This document shows, piece after piece, positions 5,100 to 44,239 of a stretch of DNA of 64,000 nt; the first letter of the stretch is position 1; every line of letters starts with the position of its first letter. This DNA comes from the human T2T-CHM13v2.0 reference genome, Homo sapiens. Made by a program: the position numbers and the translations under genes. The stretch lies in NCBI RefSeq assembly GCF_009914755.1, contig NC_060926.1; one strand, 5' to 3'. The notes beneath the pieces were generated by a model. The model searched no databases. It had not been told where the DNA came from and saw only the letters and a list, made by a program, of their open reading frames with translations.

Positions 5100-7260
5100 G
5101 GGTCTCCATACCTATTTAAAATGCTGAAAGCTGAAAAGAGCATTGTTTTTATTCTAACAACTACAATACAAAAAGCTGAATAAACTATACAATTGTAATT
5201 ATTTGAACCACAGACCGAAAGATGCAGGGCAACCAAGTAGCCTAAAATCTAATAAAAAGGATGCATCTTCAAGGAAAAATGAGACACAAGCCCATCACAA
5301 GCACAGAGCATGGAAGGAAGAGTTGCCGTTACAAATAGATAAAAAATTAACTGAATTTGTTAATGAATTGATAAAGGCTGGTTGTGGGTAGGTGTAAAAC
5401 CATATAATCCATGGAGCCATAAACACAAGGGGGATTTGCACCCACTCATCCTCTTTTCCATGGAACACAACTAGTGTTGATGAGAAACTCTGATGCCAGG
5501 GCAGGAAAACAATAAAAATCGAACTTTGTTTTATGGCTTGGAGGAGGGGAGAGGCCACCACTGCAGGAAAGGCACAAAGCCCTGGCAGAACCATCTTCTC
5601 CTGTGAGTTTTAAGCCCTTGAAGAGAGAGCAGTAAGCCCTGTCAACCTCAGGGCACAAATTAAGATCCATTACAGCCTGAGAAAGAGTAAAAGAAAAAAA
5701 AACTTTTATTTTTAAGGAAACAGGAAACCATGCTCAACCCTATCACCGGAGCAGCAAGAAAGTCCCACACAAGAACTACCAAAAATATAAGAGGGTTTGC
5801 CTGCCAGGGAGGTGAGCAGCAGGATGACTGCCAAAGCTCCATCCCTAAGGCCCAGGGACACAAGGCCAGCCTAAGAATGAGGCTGGAGCAGGACAATAGA
5901 GAAACTCCTTTCCACTTCTATAATAAGGTTAGAAAGTCCCAATTCGCAAGCTACAAATGTCTATCTCTGTGACAGCGATAAGAGGATTGAGACACCCACT
6001 ATGAGGTGCAGGCACAAAGGGAAGGCTGAAAGCCAAGGGTGGAGTAGAAACATTCAGCAAAACGCTCTGGCAACCCAGCTCCCAAGATAAACACAAGATA
6101 ACCCTCCAGGATTTAAAGTCTGTGATACACTCAAGGAAACAATAGGAACAACAAAACTCAAACCAGCTCAGATATGGAGTAGATTGAGTCAACTGCATGC
6201 ACTGTTGGTCTAGCAAAGAGGGATGCCCATTTTCAGGCACATATATTATTTCTCCCTGTCCTTACTGGAGCTACTCACAATGAGTGACATTCAATAGAAG
6301 AAATAGAAGGCTCACAAACAAGTAAGAAAAAAGAGCCCACTGGAAAGAGATAAAGCAATTAACAGACACCGACTCAGAAATGGCCCAAATATTGGAACTA
6401 TTGGACAGGAAATTTTAAATATTATTATTAATAAATTATAATTTCTCATGGAAAACATGGTCAACAGCCATGAACAGATGTGGACTTTTGCAAAGAAATG
6501 AAAACTATTCAAAAGAGTCAAATAGAAATGCTAAAAAATATCTATCAAAAATGAAGGTGAAATAGTTTTTGAGACAACAGAATACATACATACAAACATA
6601 CATATATACATATGTAAAAGAATTTAATATCAGCAGAACTGCACCACAGGAAATATTTCAAAAAACAAGCAGACAGAAAACAAAGATGTTTTTAGGCAAA
6701 GGAACATGATACTAGACAGAAATTTGAATCTATACACAAGCAGGCAAATGAAGAACTCTAGGAATAGTTAAAATGAAAGTAAATTAAAAAGACACTTTTT
6801 ATTTTTAATCACTCTAAATCGCTTTTCTTTAGACGTTCAAAAATACGCTAAAGTATCATTGAATGTCTAAAAAACACTGGTAGAAATGCATTAGGGGTTT
6901 ATATCATATGTAAATATAAAATGGATAACATCAATCAATAGCACAAAAGATGAGGGGGAAGAATCGTCAGTATGCCATTTTGTAAATTGCAGTCTAAATG
7001 AAGCAGTATGATGCTATTTGAAAGTACACTGTTATTAATCAATGATGGGCATTGAAAATCCTGTAGCAGCCACTACATTTTAAAAAGTTGTTTATAATAA
7101 GCTAATCATGAAATAAAATAGAATTATATAAATTTCTCAATCATAATTAGACAAAAAGGAGACAAAAAGGAACAAAGAACAGATGGAACAAATAGAAAAC
7201 AAATAGCAAGAAAGCAGATTTTAATTTAACTATATAAATATTTATAATTTATAAAAGTAT
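5100..7260 (+). mobile_element. Degraded old L1M 5' region / ORF1
   Basis: Degenerate L1M motifs (cagcagaactgcaccacaggaaatatt, gaaatttgaatctatacac, gaaatgaaaactattcaaaagagtcaaatagaaat). Confidence 0.6.
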
Positions 7261-23463: not shown

Positions 23464-24893
23464 AGTTCTCAAACTTAAAGGTATGTAAGATTCATTCAAG
23501 TTGTTTGCTAAATGTAATAGGAATTCTAGTTAATATGATGCTTAATATCACCAGGCACTCTTTTAAGCACGTCACATATATCAACTGAATTTTTCCTCAC
23601 AACAGCTCTGAGTTAAGGACTATGATTTTCTCATTTCACAGGGAAGAAAGTGTAAGTACAAATAGGTTTTTTAATTGCTTAAGGATTAACATTTAGTAAA
23701 ATCTGGAGCTGGAATTCAAGCCAAGGCAGCCTGGTTGCAGAGTCTACCCACTACACTGGTCCCTAAGAAGAGTCCTTGTTCCCTCTTCTACAGATTTTTT
23801 TAAAATTAGCATCTGAGGGTAGATCCCTGGAATCCAAATTTTCTTTTTTTTTTTTTTTGTACTGGTTCCTTTATTCAAATTAAGATATTACAATACAAAA
23901 ACATTGTTCTAAATGTAGGCTTATAATGAAAATCATACTATTCCATACACTTGCATAAATGACTTAAACAATTGAGAGACAATATTTCCCAAATAGTATA
24001 TCATAGAGTTAATAACTGAAACACACCATGAAAATGCTCTGTGGTCAAACAGATTTGGGCAATGCTGGTTAAGTAAAGTTAAAGAGTTGGTTTTGCAATA
24101 TGACTTCTCAGAGCTATTAATATGTTAGTATATATTTGAATACTCAAGAGGGAGCTATAAGCAGTAAGCAAAATTTTTTTTAGAATATATTTGATGAAGA
24201 AATTATTTTTAGATGGAAATCTATAAGGCTGTTTTATATAAAAAAGGAAGGCATTAATCTTTCTCTTCTGAAATGCCAAACTTCAATGATGAGTCCTGCA
24301 AACTGGTTCCTTATGGCACGATGCTATCCAGGAATAGGATAGCATTGATGTAGGATTGGCTATGTGTTCGTATCTGAGTGTTAGCATGACATTTGCATGC
24401 TATGTCATGGACTGAGAATCTGGGTTAGGTTGTCCTGACAGCAAACGCAATTGTGATATTGTCAGTATACCACTCTCTCTATTTACTCATCTAAATGAAC
24501 CACTCTACAAGAAACCTTTGAAATTTAATAAATTCAACTCATATTGAACTCACAATTTAATTTTAATTCATATTTACGAGCTATTGAAAAAACATTCCAC
24601 TCACTTGAAAATTCAAAACAAAAATAAGAGTATTCTTTATTCCATAATTGCACCGACTGAAAATATTAAATAAAAACAAGACGAGAACTTGTCTCTAAAG
24701 AACTTTAAGGAGTCCATTTCTCAAAAAACTATGCCATACTATAGATTCTTCAATATGACCTACAAAGAGACTTAGACTCCCACACATTAATAATGGGAGA
24801 CTTTAACACCCCAAATTTTCAACATGCACTTCCCCAAACCCTCAGGTGGCTCTCATGCCAGGGTTCTCAGATCACACTTTGAAAAACATTGGC
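23464..24893. mobile_element. MER5-like hAT DNA transposon split by a MIR (~23520-23760) and by the retro-insert at 23844-24810
   Basis: Left part gttctcaaactt..; middle gagggtagatccctggaatccaaattttc resumes at 24821 as aacatgcacttcccc..caggtggctctcatgc..gatcacactttgaaaaacattgg, the typical MER5 terminus. Confidence 0.7.
23844..24810 (-). mobile_element. L1-mediated retro-insertion: non-L1 cargo with poly(A), plus a 5'-inverted 58-bp L1 ORF2 fragment (probable 3' transduction)
   Basis: TSD ccaaattttc at 23834-23843 and 24811-24820. T15 at 23844-23858. tttatt (AATAAA on -) at 23870-23875. L1 ORF2 sequence tgacctacaaagagacttagactcccacacattaataatgggagactttaacacccca at 24756-24813 on the opposite strand. 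Confidence 0.85.
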
Positions 24894-35147: not shown

Positions 35148-38100
35148 TGATCACTAACATTTTTAAGTACAAGAACATACTTAAATTTTTAATTATTGAC
35201 TTTATTCTGATTATAAATTTTAAAAATATGTGGAAGTAAAAAATCCTATTCTTACCACCCAAAGACAACCACAACTAAGTTGGGGTATATAATATATACA
35301 TAAGTACCAAATCAAAATTGGGGTTCCTGTATCTACATTGTTTTAAAGTTGCCTTTCCACTAACTTTAAAATTACTGAAGAAATACATATTAATTTTAGA
35401 ACATTCATAAAATAAAAATAAGGAAACAGAAGATAAAAACCACTTGTAGTCTTATCACTTAAACACAAAATACAAACAACATTAACATGTTAATCTATTC
35501 TCTCCCATATCCCTACACATCAACTCCAACTCCATGGCCACTGTGTATGTGTACCAACATCATGATGACATCATGATGATAAGATTGACGGAAAGGCACA
35601 GATTCAGTCAGGTAAAGTTGCTTGAAATAAAGGCTATAAAAATGTTAGTTTACAATTATGGAAATGTATGCTGTCTCTCTCTATATATATAATTGCAAAT
35701 GGACAAAAAATGGACAAAGTAAAAATCAATTACATGTATAATATTCAGGAATTAAAATGATATCCCAAACTTAGAAAAAAAGTTAGATTGTTAATAGCAG
35801 ATAATGGAGGCATGAAGGATTTTTGCAAAGTCCTCAATGTGCCCCATGGATGTAGAGCCATGACTGATGCCAGACAAAGAATGAGGACCCCTCCAGGCAT
35901 GGTTAGTCAATAGTACTGACTGTATATAATCATTGCATATTAAGGCCGTATACTTTATAGCTTCTCTTTTGAAAACAGTCTGGCATTTTATTACTAACAT
36001 AATTTTTCACCAAAAAATACTCTCTTATGAGATAATTTTTAAATGTTACCCTGAATTTCATTCTATACTTTCAACAAAACTTACCATTTTCCTATTTCTA
36101 GACCTTTTAATTATTTCTATTTTCCAAATTTATAAATAATGCTGTGATATACATTCCTATATTTATTATAATAAATCCTTGTCTAATATTCTTAATCTGG
36201 AGAACCTTTCAAAGGGTGTGTATTTTATATGTAATACAGCCTTATAGTTTAAAAAAAGTCACAAAACAACCTTCTTCTGAAACCATTACCAAGATATAGC
36301 TATTGTTAATATTTTATAAGTATCTTTATAAATATTTGTATGTGAATGTATATATCCATATATAAATTTATAGTAGGGTTTAGGGGGGATTTTCTGCAAG
36401 AAGAACTATACTTACTATACTTTGATTTGTTATTTATTTACCTGAATCATTTTAATGAGTTCATAGTAGCATGGGATTACATGAGTTTTCATAGATAATC
36501 ATTATTTTCCAATAGCCCACTGAAAAACATTTGTTTTTGCCCTTCTCCTGCAAGTAAAATTGCTAGGCCAGAGGGTGTATTCATTTTCCTTTTTATTTTG
36601 ACAGATAATAGTCTGCAAAAAGGTTTTACTGATTTATACCTCCTTTCTACAATGGTAAAGAGGTTCCATATCCCCACACCCTTGTCTACAATGGGTAGTG
36701 TGTTTCTTTATAATATAAAATTTTAAATATTTAGCAGTTTCAGTTTCTTAGAGCTTTAAATTTTCATTAGAGCTCAACTCTAGCCAAAATTTCATGAGCA
36801 ACAATAAGCAGTGTTTTATTTATTTTCTAGCTATGTCTCTTTTTTTTTTTTTTTTTTTGCTTTTTCTTTGATGTAATAGTCACTTACAAGTATGTTCCTA
36901 CGTGTTCATGTGTCAAATAACATTCGGGAGGATGGACTGTAACCCCAAAACGGTGGGATAGGAATTTGTGATGATTCTTGAAATCCTCTGTCTCCCTATT
37001 CCGAATAAATTATCTAAAAATTTTTTGTATGCTTGCTTTGTCTTAGACTAAATAAGTAAAAACTTTCAATTTTGTGGTATTTCTATGTATCTTTGTGGTT
37101 TCTGAAGTTTTGCCTTAAAAATAGCTGAAGCTATATTATCTAATATATATTAACATGATAATTTACATAAAACTATGTTACAGATTATACTCTTTATGAT
37201 TTTATTGTTATACTTTTTGGCATCATTTAACTTTTTTGCTTTTTCTCTTAATGCAACCTGGCTTAATGTTAATGTAGGCTGTCAGTGTTGTGTTTTGTGT
37301 GTTTGTTTTGGTGTTGGTTAGTATTTGCCAGGCATGTCTTTGCCATATTTTTACTTTCAAATTTTGCTTAATGATTCTCTATAATAATGTTAAATATTAG
37401 TTTTTATCAATTTAAGAATCATTTTATTTTACCAGAAGAGTTTTTGTTTTGTTTTGTTTCTGTTTTTTTTTTTTTTTTTTTTAACATCCTAAGCCTCAGA
37501 TGGTGCTATAGGTAGTTCCCCTGGATTCATCCATTTTTTGCTCTGGATTTTGTTAAAATAGCATACTACAGTTTACCATATCTAGTGACACTGAAGTTTC
37601 TCCTGAGATGGAAGCATTCACTAGTTTTCAGGCTATTTTTCCAAATCAGGGTAAATTAATGGTTACATGGTAGAGTGAATGCTTCTGAGATGTTTTCCTG
37701 ACTTCAGACCTTATATATTTTCCAAAGAACTGTAGTTATAGATCAATGCCAAGATAATGAATCAGGTCATAATTTTATGGAAAAATAAATAAGAACAACT
37801 TACTGAAAAGGATATCCTGTGAACTCTTTGGGTTGATTGTTAATATCTTCTGGCCTGCCAGAAAGGTCAGTATGGGTTTCCCCTTTATCCTTTCCCAGAA
37901 GTTCATGGTAATTGTGAAAATTAGCGACAGGTATGGCAATAAGACATTCTCTTGCTAATTCTAATTATTTTAAATGGAGGTGAAACAGCCACATCTTTGC
38001 AGTTTTCCAATTGAATCAATGTCAATCAATAAGCTAGAGGCCAAGAGGGTAAATTTTCTTGACTGCTAATAGCTGAATAACCCTCTATTTCCTCATATGA

Positions 38101-41937: not shown

Positions 41938-44239
41938 ATACCTTTGTCCAATTTTAAAAATTTTTCTTCTTTTTCTTTTTTTTTTTTTTTTTTTTGGTCA
42001 TTATTCTTTTCTATAACTCCATATCTTTGGTGAAATAAACTGGGTTTGTTCTCAAGCCTGTGCCAGACCTGTGGTGATGCTATACAGGAAAACCTCCAGA
42101 GAAACTTGGTAATGCTGATTAGGAAGCAGAAAAAAAAAGCAATTGGAAAAAAAACAATCTGCTGCTGGTAGGGAAGAAAGAAGATGGTTGACAGAGATGC
42201 TAAAACCAGCACAGGTTTTCAGGATCTGTAAACACTCCTAAAAAACCCAGAAAGACCCAGAGGGAGAAGAGACAGGATCCCCTACTAATCAAGCGGGATG
42301 GAGACTGGGACATTATGTCCATTTGGAAACTAAGAAATATTTGGGGATATGTGGTTTTAAACCTCATCTTGCCAACACCATCCATCACGTTGGCACAGAC
42401 TCACGTTAATAAAGCTCAATGAAATGGGTATATTTCAACCACAATCTCAACTAGTTATTTAGAATGATAAATACAATTATGAGGTAGATTAGAATACTTG
42501 AAATAGCCATTTGATACATAATTCCCTGAGGCCCATTTCTTGTAGGAAGTCCTTTTTTTACTTCCATTAAAAAAAATACAACCATAGGCAGATTGGACAT
42601 TGATGCCAGTCTTCTTTCCAATGCATTTTCTTCTCATGGGCCGAAGGATGCCTGCTAAGTGCAGGTCAGAATAAGGCAAGTGAGAATTATCTGACTGGAA
42701 CACTCAGGTATGTCGAGCTCTGGAGGCTGCTCTGCCCATCTCCATAGAGGATATACCCTTTGCCACCCTCCCAAACTTAGAATTGGAAAGAGTACAAAAA
42801 TATTTGGTCTTCTCATTTCTAGTTTTCTGGCTGATTTGTATCCTTTGTACACATACATCCTTCTCCAAAAAAAAAAAAGAAAAAAAAAGAACATCAACTC
42901 TTGTGTTTAGATCTCAAGATACTTAGGCGTCTTCATATTCCATTTCTGTACTTCCGAGTTTCCAATGTTCCCAAGCCCTTCGGACACAGAGTCATATGCA
43001 TTTCCCCTGTGAACTTTCCCTGATGACTGACCACAGCCATAATGTGTGGATTTTGCTACTTTATCTATCAGATATCATTATGTTTCTTATCTCCAAGTTC
43101 TGTGGAAGGGAGTCCTCCTTCTGACTTCCAAATTCTAACAAAATACTGGACATTGGAATGCCCCCACTTATCTGGCATATGTCCAGATTTTGTGTAAAAT
43201 ATCTTATGTGATATTATATTATTGTGAAAAATGATCTCGGGATCTAATCAAACCATCTATCTCATTGTATAAATAATTACTTGGAAAAGGTTTGTGTGAG
43301 ATGCTCAAATACATAGAGGTGGTAGATGGCATTGCTGAAGCAGAGCCTGGCCTTTCGGACTCTCATTTTGACATCTCCCTCTGCTCCAGGCTGCCTCTGG
43401 CTACTGGTTCCTCCACATTTCAATTGCTTCTGCCGCATGCGGGAGAGTGCTCACTGATAATGATCTGTCCTTTCCCTTATCCTTTTTCCCTCTCACACAG
43501 GGGAGAATGTTACAGGACCAAATCACTGAAATGTAAAAACATTTGGAGGGTTTAGCTTGTTTTATTTTTATTTTTTCTCATTTCTTGTCAGGGAAAGAAC
43601 ACACCACTTTGTCATCAAGACAAAGTAGATTCTTTAAGAGGATTGTTTTCAACAAGGCTGCTCTGTGGTGAATATTGGCCATGACCTGATAGAAAATGAA
43701 TTGAGCCATTCAAACATGTTAGTAGCCTAATACTGAAAATTTATTTTCCCATTCTAATGAAAGATGATGGCTTCTTCAATCATAAACTTGGTCTAGTTTT
43801 ATTTAAATATTGAAAGTGTCATCAGCATAGGATCTATTGTGCTGGGCTTCTAAAGAGAGAAGCAAACAGTCATTTTCTGAGCTTGATTGGGCCTGATGTG
43901 TTATGATATGTAGGATAATTTATTCTTGCTTTAAGTCCAATTAAGGTGAAACACTTCTCAGACAGCAGAGGTTTTGATGGGCTAACCGAGGCTTATGTGG
44001 ATTACAAAGATGTCCTCTGGAAGGAAAATTTACTTTGAGACAGTCCATTCCACTTTTTGAGATGGAAAAACAATTTTTCTTAGAAATGTAGTGTTACTGA
44101 TAAATACCAGAAGTCAGTTCCTATCTCTGAGTTAATCACAGCAACTACAAGACTGAATGCTCACCCATCTTTTACTGTTCCACAGGCATAAAATGGGAGA
44201 GCAGAATGCAGTTCAGCAGAAAACAGGAGAGTGCAGGTG

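What the first reader, a model, noticed from the sequence alone, without database searches (positions are those of the whole stretch)
23834..24820. Near-orphan L1 3' transduction: ~900 bp of foreign genomic DNA retro-inserted with poly(A) and a TSD
Seen: a perfect 10-bp direct repeat ccaaattttc (23834-23843, 24811-24820) brackets a 967-bp segment. On the - strand this segment ends in AATAAA, 11 nt, then A15. The reconstructed empty site reads TT/GAAAA on the - strand. Removing the segment rejoins the two halves of a MER5-like element. Known: TSD, poly(A) and a TT/AAAA-like site are hallmarks of L1 target-primed reverse transcription. Inferred: the cargo (23859-24755) is not L1, Alu or SVA and has no ORF. 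It appears to contain an old DNA-transposon fragment (~24030-24200), so it is probably genomic DNA downstream of a source L1 elsewhere, or a retrocopied 3'UTR/lncRNA end. The pure tail and perfect TSD suggest a very recent event that repeat annotation would largely miss.
Basis: partly seen in the sequence, partly recalled or inferred. Interest (0 to 1): 0.85.

Follow-up and report, generated by a model that had tools for sequence, protein, structure and literature searches.

The report
Near-orphan L1 transduction with inverted stub
About 900 bases copied from chromosome 4 were pasted here by the L1 retrotransposon machinery together with a tiny back-to-front piece of L1, an ordinary and well-known kind of event whose parent L1 is missing from this genome assembly.

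Summary
A perfect 10-bp duplication (23834-23843, 24811-24820) brackets a 967-bp insert. On the - strand the insert ends in AATAAA, 11 nt, then A15.

The interpretation, an L1 3' transduction, is supported and can now be traced. 898 nt (23859-24756) copy chr4:95,265,450-95,266,353 of the same assembly. That locus has no tail and runs on collinearly, so it is the donor.

A sibling insert at chr2:81.35 Mb carries an L1 3' end, an (AAT)n tail, a 17-nt tag and an A-rich stretch. It then carries the same chr4 sequence, starting 84 nt further upstream, and its own poly(A) and 15-bp duplication.

The remaining 54 nt of the window insert (24757-24810) are L1 ORF2 endonuclease-domain sequence in the opposite orientation. 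They have 3-nt and 2-nt microhomologies at their junctions, which fits twin priming that skipped about 3.7 kb of the RNA.

No L1 lies at the chr4 donor site in this assembly. The tag itself comes from an Alu tail at chr16:72.69 Mb, which is also empty.

The L1 lineage has GAG at the diagnostic triplet, so it is older than Ta and pre-Ta. Divergence is 2 substitutions in 899 columns, which suggests a few million years rather than "very recent". This is a known mechanism and an ordinary finding, with a neat pedigree.

The parts
23834..23843 (.). Target-site duplication, the copy next to the poly(A) tail (3' copy in insert sense)
   Evidence: Exact 10-mer repeated at 24811-24820. It abuts the T15 run.
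23844..23858 (-). Pure A15 poly(A) tail (T15 on the + strand)
   Evidence: It is absent from the chr4 donor, which continues with unrelated sequence.
23870..23875 (-). AATAAA polyadenylation signal, carried over from the chr4 donor
   Evidence: 11 nt lie between the hexamer and the tail. The same hexamer is present in the donor, followed there by a GT-rich stretch.
23859..24756 (-). Transduced segment: 898 nt copied from chr4:95,265,450-95,266,353 of the same assembly
   Evidence: 98% to chr4, 99% to the chr2:81.35 Mb sibling, query 55-952. (899 ungapped columns; 2 private substitutions and 3 small deletions in the window copy).
24755..24756 (.). 2-nt microhomology (AT) at the junction between the transduced segment and the inverted L1 piece
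   Evidence: both the chr4 donor and L1 copies read AT at this position.
24757..24810 (+). 54-nt L1 ORF2 fragment (endonuclease domain, ORF2 residues 131-148), inverted relative to the poly(A) tail
   Evidence: 19 of 40 scored matches are 100% identical L1 hits to this piece, and 18 more are 97-98% identical. One search shows it in L1 context; the frame reads DLQRDLDSHTLIMGDFNT inside a Pfam Exo_endo_phos match (E 4.7e-22) of an L1 ORF2; it is identical in 2 of 3 full-length tag-bearing L1 copies.
24811..24820 (.). Target-site duplication, the copy next to the inverted L1 piece (5' copy in insert sense). Its first 3 nt (24811-24813, CCA) also match the next 3 nt of L1.
   Evidence: all 5 L1 copies examined continue CCACTG after the fragment, and the window continues CCAAAT.

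Best explanation
This is a 5'-inverted, internally deleted ('near-orphan') L1 3' transduction.

An L1 of a GAG-type lineage, older than Ta and pre-Ta, once sat at about chr4:95,265,366 in this assembly's coordinates. Transcription ran through L1's own weak poly(A) site. It ended about 1 kb downstream at a canonical AATAAA in the chr4 flank.

L1 ORF2p nicked the window's + strand at TTTC/AA and primed on the poly(A) tail. It copied only the last ~900 nt of this RNA, all of it chr4 flank. The second target strand was nicked 10 bp away. Its 3' end (...TGG) annealed to CCA inside the ORF2 region of the RNA and primed a second cDNA of only 54 nt. This is twin priming. The two cDNA ends were joined at a 2-nt microhomology, which left out about 3.7 kb of RNA.

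Shown: the hallmarks, the donor, the sibling, the orientation and the microhomologies. Inferred: that one RNA supplied both pieces, and that a full-length L1 once occupied the chr4 site.

The insert has no ORF and no sign of function. It is a neutral insertion.
For: - Hallmarks: TSD, A15, AATAAA and a TTTC/A nick site. TTTC/A is one of the three endonuclease cut-site motifs counted in the Table 1 legend of PMC12016303 (passages).
- Copies: among the 40 of 65 first-look candidates that were scored, 3 loci carry the cargo, namely the window itself, chr2:81.35 Mb and chr4:95.27 Mb. A repeat search with 23990-24420 found the same 3 plus one weak repeat hit.
- Donor: chr4 has no tail, extends collinearly on both sides, and has AATAAA followed by a GT-rich stretch.
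- Sibling at chr2:81.35 Mb, in order: inverted L1, the last ~70 nt of L1, (AAT)n, a 17-nt tag, an A-rich run, then chr4 sequence starting 84 nt upstream of the window's start. Its poly(A) is added 4-5 nt further downstream, and it has a 15-bp TSD.
- Independence: the different poly(A) sites and non-shared private substitutions (2 and 2) show two independent events from one source RNA species.
- Orientation: the L1 piece is antisense to the tail. Its 3'-most L1 base abuts the 5' TSD, as twin priming predicts. There is a 3-nt primer/RNA microhomology and a 2-nt joint microhomology.
- Gap size: in full-length relatives the piece lies 3,624-3,633 nt upstream of the tag, and the tag start lies a further 113 nt from the direct cDNA's end.
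- Precedent for gaps: 155 of 287 inverted L1 insertions in PMC12016303 had more than 20 bp between the two cDNAs (section 8), so gaps are not unusual.
Against: - No L1 lies upstream of the chr4 donor in this assembly. The defining 'source L1 next to the donor' is therefore inferred from the sibling and was not seen.
- The 54-nt L1 piece is identical to at least 19 other L1 copies, so it cannot be assigned to the same RNA.
- A gap of about 3.7 kb between the two cDNAs is far larger than the typical case. In 132 of 287 insertions the two cDNAs lay within 20 bp.
- The insertion's presence or absence in other humans and apes was not testable here.
Confidence: 0.88

Rival explanations
1. This is the same 3' transduction RNA for the 898-nt part, but the 54-nt inverted ORF2 stub was copied from a different L1 RNA. 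The second-strand primer would have annealed in trans to another L1 transcript. Under this reading the source RNA need not have been near full-length.
For: The stub is 100% identical to 19 of the 40 scored genome matches, so it carries no lineage mark. The gap of about 3.7 kb between the two cDNAs is much larger than in the 132 of 287 inverted insertions that lie within 20 bp.
Against: A single RNA explains everything without a second template. ORF2 lies upstream of the 3' flank on the read-through RNA, as twin priming requires. The stub is identical in 2 of 3 full-length tag-bearing relatives. 155 of 287 inverted insertions in PMC12016303 also had more than 20 bp between the two cDNAs.
Confidence: 0.08
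2. This is a processed retrocopy of an ordinary chr4 Pol II transcript (a lncRNA or 3'UTR end) that is not driven by an L1. The L1 pieces would have been joined by chance template switching.
For: No L1 lies at the chr4 donor in this assembly. The donor has its own AATAAA and a GT-rich downstream element. 5' inversions also occur in processed pseudogenes (3 of 23 in PMC12016303).
Against: In the sibling, the chr4 sequence is preceded in the same orientation by an L1 3' end, tail, tag and an 11-nt A-rich remnant. That is the exact picture of an L1 inserted at that chr4 point. Both independent offspring carry L1 parts. The same tail and tag are found on 5 other L1 copies.
Confidence: 0.03
3. This is a DNA-level duplication, or a secondary copy made from the chr2:81.35 Mb sibling rather than from chr4.
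For: Identity to the sibling (99%) is slightly higher than to chr4 (98%).
Against: The poly(A) tail, TSD and endonuclease site argue for an RNA route. The window copy lacks both private substitutions of the sibling. Its tail starts 4-5 nt earlier. Its ORF2 stub (about L1 nt 2,370-2,425) is not contained in the sibling, which holds only the 3' ~1.4 kb of L1, inverted, plus the last ~70 nt. The extra chr4 differences are private to chr4 (6).
Confidence: 0.01

Closest known systems
L1 3' transduction, including 'orphan' transductions
   Same: Read-through of the L1 poly(A) site, use of a downstream AATAAA, retro-insertion of flank DNA with a poly(A) tail, a TSD and an endonuclease-type nick site. 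The insert is severely 5'-truncated, so almost only flank is inserted. PMC12350158 (passages) reports 878 partnered and 48 orphan transductions in 1,019 genomes. A T2T preprint (10.1101/2022.12.01.518724, passages) quotes on average 6.9 transductions per Mb in CHM13 autosomes.
   Different: It is not a pure orphan, because a 54-nt L1 piece is present. That piece comes from ORF2 and not from the L1 3' end, and it is inverted. The source L1 is absent from the assembly at the donor site.
Twin priming (5' inversion of L1 insertions; Ostertag and Kazazian 2001, seen only as reference 14 of PMC12016303, because the paper itself was not held)
   Same: An inverted 5' segment lies next to the 5' TSD, with its 3'-most RNA position at the TSD. 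There is microhomology between the target 3' end and the RNA. The inverted part derives from RNA upstream of the direct part. Such inversions occur in 18.4% of germline L1 insertions.
   Different: The gap between the two cDNAs is about 3.7 kb, against 20 bp or less in 132 of 287 cases. The inverted cDNA is only 54 nt, against a germline median of 751 bp. The direct cDNA contains no L1 at all.
Processed pseudogene / retrocopy
   Same: The same ORF2p-mediated target-primed reverse transcription of a polyadenylated Pol II RNA, with the same hallmarks.
   Different: The template is an L1 read-through RNA and not a cellular mRNA. It contains no exons and no ORF.
Serial (nested) transduction lineages used to trace L1 pedigrees (the approach of Szak 2003 and Macfarlane 2013, recalled and not read here)
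   Same: Successive 3' tags record successive source loci. Here a first tag from a chr16 Alu tail is followed by a second tag from chr4.
   Different: This lineage is GAG-type, unlike the Ta lineages usually traced. Both tag-donor sites are empty in this assembly.

Membership tests
L1-mediated retro-insertion (target-primed reverse transcription) | 3' poly(A) tail not encoded at the donor | tested here: met
   A15 at 23844-23858. The chr4 donor continues without an A-run.
L1-mediated retro-insertion (target-primed reverse transcription) | Target-site duplication flanking the insert exactly | tested here: met
   A perfect 10 bp abuts the tail and the end of L1 homology. The chance is about 4e-5.
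L1-mediated retro-insertion (target-primed reverse transcription) | Endonuclease-type nick site (TTTT/A-like) | tested here: met
   TTTC/AA on the nicked + strand. TTTC/A is one of three motifs scored as a cut site in PMC12016303.
L1 3' transduction | Non-L1 part matches a unique donor locus that lacks the tail and ends at a poly(A) signal | tested here: met
   chr4:95,265,450-95,266,353 at 98% identity, with AATAAA 11-16 nt before the ends of both offspring.
L1 3' transduction | Donor lies immediately 3' of a (full-length) source L1 | tested here: not met
   In this assembly an old, diverged L1 fragment and 9 unrelated bases precede the donor, and there is no young L1. Indirect support comes from the sibling, which joins the L1 3' end, tail, tag and A-rich run to this exact point. 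Other haplotypes could not be examined.
L1 3' transduction | L1 sequence upstream of and in the same orientation as the transduced part | tested here: not met
   In the window the only L1 piece is inverted ORF2. The feature is met in the sibling locus. Hence 'near-orphan'.
Twin priming | Inverted 5' segment whose 3'-most RNA position abuts the 5' TSD, with primer/RNA complementarity | tested here: met
   L1 ...AACACC|CCA against target CCA..., giving 3 nt of complementarity.
Twin priming | Inverted and direct cDNAs nearly contiguous on the RNA (small gap or overlap) | tested here: not met
   The gap is about 3,624-3,633 nt plus 113 nt. The literature shows this feature is typical rather than obligatory: 132 of 287 lie within 20 bp.
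L1HS Ta / pre-Ta subfamily | ACA or ACG at the diagnostic triplet (positions 5,929-5,931) | tested here: not met
   The 4 tag-bearing copies that cover the triplet read GAG. The sibling reads GA followed by the junction. The criterion comes from PMC12350158 section 53. Calling the lineage 'L1PA2-like' rests on recall.

The most novel reading that the evidence does not exclude
The window insert is the last link of a three-step L1 pedigree written in nested 3' tags. The steps are the chr16:72.69 Mb Alu tail, then a GAG-type L1 lineage, then chr4:95.27 Mb, then two chr2 offspring. Both progenitor sites are empty in a complete assembly. The boldest reading is that the chr4 progenitor, a GAG-type and pre-L1HS-like element, still segregates as a non-reference L1 in some humans. 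It would then have been active well after the human-chimpanzee split, extending the activity window of a subfamily regarded as extinct.
Probability: 0.08. Interest if true: 0.5.

Novelty: new member of a known kind. Interest (0 to 1): 0.27.

Why it matters
The biological importance is small. This is one more neutral L1-mediated insertion in a gene desert, made by mechanisms described more than twenty years ago.

It does illustrate three points.
- Annotation methods that start from an annotated L1 3' end will miss inserts whose only L1 part is a short inverted ORF2 stub. No stretch of 100 bases or more in 23834-24820 is in the hub's list of masked repeats.
- Nested tags allow a source pedigree to be rebuilt even when the progenitors are absent from a telomere-to-telomere assembly.
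- Two successive progenitors that left fixed or surviving offspring are themselves missing. That fits the view that active full-length L1s are short-lived alleles.

Tried and rejected
- MER5 claim. Genome searches with the left flank gave only two weak hits to 23694-23746, about 100 nt from the site. The right flank gave the self hit only. Sensitive BLAST of both flanks against the two weak paralogues found no alignment crossing the site. BLAST of an in-silico empty site against the rest of the window and all fetched loci found no hit longer than 27 nt. The claim stays untested. From recall the flanks do resemble a MER5-type element, and 23540-23760 resembles a MIR.
- Polymorphism check. Six CHM13 coordinate prefixes for the three loci were searched in the one held supplementary file of PMC12350158, with 0 occurrences. 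This is weak, because it is unknown which tables that file holds.
- The 17-nt tag was searched as a text string in the paper library, with 0 papers.
- The twin-priming paper (PMC311219) is not held.
- A first L1-tail alignment included the chr3 copy, which holds only about 190 nt of L1 and misaligned at 49% 'divergence'. I dropped that row and used the other four.
- Segmental duplication and a copy made from the chr2:81.35 Mb sibling were considered and rejected (see rivals).
- The chr4 branch excess (6 private substitutions against 2 and 2) is only suggestive. My own binomial estimate gives p of about 0.08.

Full report
**Observation.**
The 10-mer CCAAATTTTC lies at 23834-23843 and again at 24811-24820. 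A pure T15 run follows at 23844-23858. TTTATT at 23870-23875 is AATAAA on the - strand, with 11 nt between the hexamer and the tail.

The 2.1-kb neighbourhood holds five exact 10-nt direct-repeat families, so the repeat alone proves little. Its two copies, however, sit exactly at boundaries defined independently: the tail on one side and the end of L1 homology on the other. With local base composition, a 10-mer match at a fixed pair of positions has probability 2.7e-6, or about 4e-5 with 16 offsets allowed. No ORF of 40 aa or more overlaps the segment.

**Where the cargo comes from.**
I searched the window's own assembly with the insert. 40 of 65 first-look candidates were scored. The matches were:
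- the window itself;
- chr2:81,353,146-81,354,049, at 99% over query 55-952;
- chr4:95,265,450-95,266,353, at 98% over query 55-952;
- 37 short hits to the first 56-60 query bases only, of which 19 were 100% identical and 18 were 97-98% identical.

A second search with 23990-24420 again found only those three loci, plus one 77% hit to 24053-24140. That hit is weak support for an ancient repeat fragment inside the cargo.

The chr4 locus has no A-tail. After the shared end it continues with a GT-rich stretch, and the similarity to the chr2:81.35 Mb copy extends 84 nt further upstream than the window copy reaches. chr4 is therefore the donor.

**The sibling shows that the RNA was an L1 read-through.**
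The chr2:81.35 Mb locus reads, in insert sense:
1. a 15-bp TSD (AAAAAGTCAGAAAAC);
2. about 1.35 kb of inverted L1, covering the ORF2 3' end and the start of the 3' UTR;
3. the last ~70 nt of L1 in direct orientation;
4. an (AAT)n tail;
5. a 17-nt tag (TAGCTCTGTGGACTCTG);
6. an 11-nt A-rich run;
7. chr4 sequence beginning at about chr4:95,265,366;
8. a poly(A) added 4-5 nt further downstream than in the window;
9. the TSD again.

This is a classical twin-primed L1 with a 3' transduction. The A-rich run between the tag and the chr4 sequence looks like the tail of an L1 that once sat at that chr4 position.

Over 899 ungapped columns, the private changes are as follows:

| Copy | Private substitutions | Private deletions |
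|---|---|---|
| Window | 2 | 3 (of 2, 1 and 3 nt) |
| chr2:81.35 Mb sibling | 2 | 0 |
| chr4 donor | 6 | 0 |

Private changes and different poly(A) sites mean two independent retrotransposition events from the same kind of RNA. Neither offspring derives from the other.

**The L1 stub in the window.**
Bases 24757-24810 are identical to many L1 copies. Placed in L1 context, they read in the sense direction on the + strand, which is antisense to the poly(A) tail. In frame they encode DLQRDLDSHTLIMGDFNT, residues 131-148 of an L1 ORF2. The N-terminal 230 residues of that ORF2 match Pfam Exo_endo_phos (E 4.7e-22), followed by RVT_1.

All 5 L1 copies examined continue CCACTG after the fragment. The window continues with the TSD, CCAAAT. 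The 3' end of the upstream target strand (...TGG) is therefore complementary to 3 nt of the RNA exactly where the inverted cDNA starts. At the other end, L1 and the chr4 donor share AT (24755-24756).

This geometry is what twin priming predicts:
- the 3'-most L1 base lies at the 5' TSD;
- the inverted part comes from RNA upstream of the direct part;
- both joints show microhomology.

PMC12016303 (sections 3, 7 and 8 read) gives the background. 5' inversions occur in 18.4% of germline L1 insertions. In 132 of 287 inverted insertions the two cDNAs lie within 20 bp, so 155 have larger gaps.

Here the gap is large. In three full-length relatives the 54-mer lies 3,624-3,633 nt upstream of the tag, and the direct cDNA ends 113 nt beyond the tag start. 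About 3.7 kb of RNA was skipped. Both reverse-transcription runs evidently aborted early, at 898 nt and 54 nt.

Because the 54-mer is not lineage-specific, I cannot exclude that it was copied from a second L1 RNA. I give that rival 0.08.

**The missing source, and an older tag.**
Upstream of the chr4 donor the assembly shows an old, diverged L1 fragment and 9 unrelated bases, with no young L1. The progenitor is therefore absent from this assembly. Either it was lost or it is non-reference.

An exact search for the 17-nt tag gave 8 matches, against 0 for the reversed control. They sort as follows:
- Six are L1 3' ends with the same (AAT)n...AGT AAT AAT AAT AAAA tail, then the tag, then poly(A). 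They lie at chr2:81.35, chr3:106.80, chr4:139.54, chr6:99.60, chr7:135.21 and chr13:35.23 Mb.
- One, on chr8, is unrelated unique sequence and probably a chance match.
- One, at chr16:72,686,692, is an Alu whose A-rich tail has the same (AAT)n...AGT...AATAAAA. It is followed by the tag and then by unique flank with no poly(A).

So the lineage's tail and tag are themselves an earlier short transduction. An L1 lodged in that Alu tail, and the AATAAA lies 18 nt before the tag's end. The chr16 site is also empty in this assembly.

The chr6, chr7 and chr13 copies span about 6.06-6.09 kb and are 97.7-98.2% identical pairwise.

**Subfamily and age.**
The four tag-bearing copies that cover the diagnostic triplet read GAG. 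The sibling reads GA up to its junction. PMC12350158 (section 53) defines pre-Ta as ACG and Ta as ACA at positions 5,929-5,931, so this lineage is neither. 'L1PA2-like' is my recollection and not a tool result.

For dating, 2 substitutions in 899 columns is 0.22%. With recalled hominid rates of 0.5-1e-9 per site per year, that is roughly 2-4.5 million years. The Poisson 95% range for 2 events is 0.24-7.2, which corresponds to about 0.3-16 million years. The pure tail and perfect TSD fit a youngish insert, but 'very recent' is not shown.

The longer chr4 branch (6 against 2 and 2) would fit a source allele that belonged to a haplotype diverged from the empty one. My binomial estimate of p about 0.08 makes this only suggestive.

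**Comparison with what is known.**
L1 3' transduction, orphan transduction and twin priming are all long established. PMC12350158 (passages) lists 878 partnered and 48 orphan polymorphic transductions. A T2T preprint (passages) quotes on average 6.9 transductions per Mb in CHM13 autosomes. It describes a detection method that starts from annotated L1s or SVAs and their TSDs. I infer that such a method would overlook an insert whose only L1 part is a 54-nt inverted ORF2 stub.

I found no printed mention of the tag or of these coordinates (one supplementary file, contents unknown). bioRxiv supplements and the T2T repeat paper's tables, which may list these loci, were not available.

**Verdict.**
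The thing is a neutral, near-orphan, twin-primed L1 3' transduction from chr4. It belongs to a GAG-type L1 lineage whose two successive tag-donor sites are empty in this assembly. It is a new member of a known kind. Interest is low to moderate.

Noticed in passing
L012-L016 and L018 (chr2:81.35, chr3:106.80, chr4:139.54, chr6:99.60, chr7:135.21 and chr13:35.23 Mb); L023-L025: This is a family of six L1 copies that share an (AAT)n tail and a 17-nt tag before the poly(A). Three of them (chr6, chr7, chr13) span about 6.06-6.09 kb and are 97.7-98.2% identical pairwise. All copies that cover the diagnostic triplet read GAG.
   Followed up: partly
L019 / L026 (chr16:72,686,640-72,686,710): An Alu tail with the same (AAT)n...AATAAAA, followed by the 17-nt tag and unique flank, is the apparent origin of the lineage's tail and tag. 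No L1 is present there in this assembly.
   Followed up: partly
L013 (chr3:106.80 Mb), L014 (chr4:139.54 Mb), L018 (chr13:35.23 Mb), just after the tag: After the tag and a first A-run, these three copies carry a further short non-L1 stretch and a second A-run. In L014 the stretch is an Alu fragment. They look like further nested short transductions in the same lineage.
   Followed up: no
L003 1-1410 (chr4:95,263,950-95,265,360): An old, strongly diverged L1 ORF2 fragment in sense orientation ends 9 bases before the donor start. It is not the source element.
   Followed up: no
window 23672-23746: The left flank weakly matches chr1:205,568,141-193 (83%) and chr15:63,199,956-995 (90%; 75% over 75 nt in a more sensitive alignment). 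This is an ancient interspersed repeat, MIR-like by recollection, and is separate from the claimed MER5 element.
   Followed up: partly
window 24053-24140: Inside the cargo there is one 77% match to chr2:174,269,141-228. An ancient repeat fragment was carried along from chr4, but its family was not identified.
   Followed up: no
window 36840-36858, 37463-37482, 41976-41995 and eight other places: The window holds eleven pure A or T runs of 12 nt or more. Apart from the one studied, they may mark tails of other retro-insertions.
   Followed up: no
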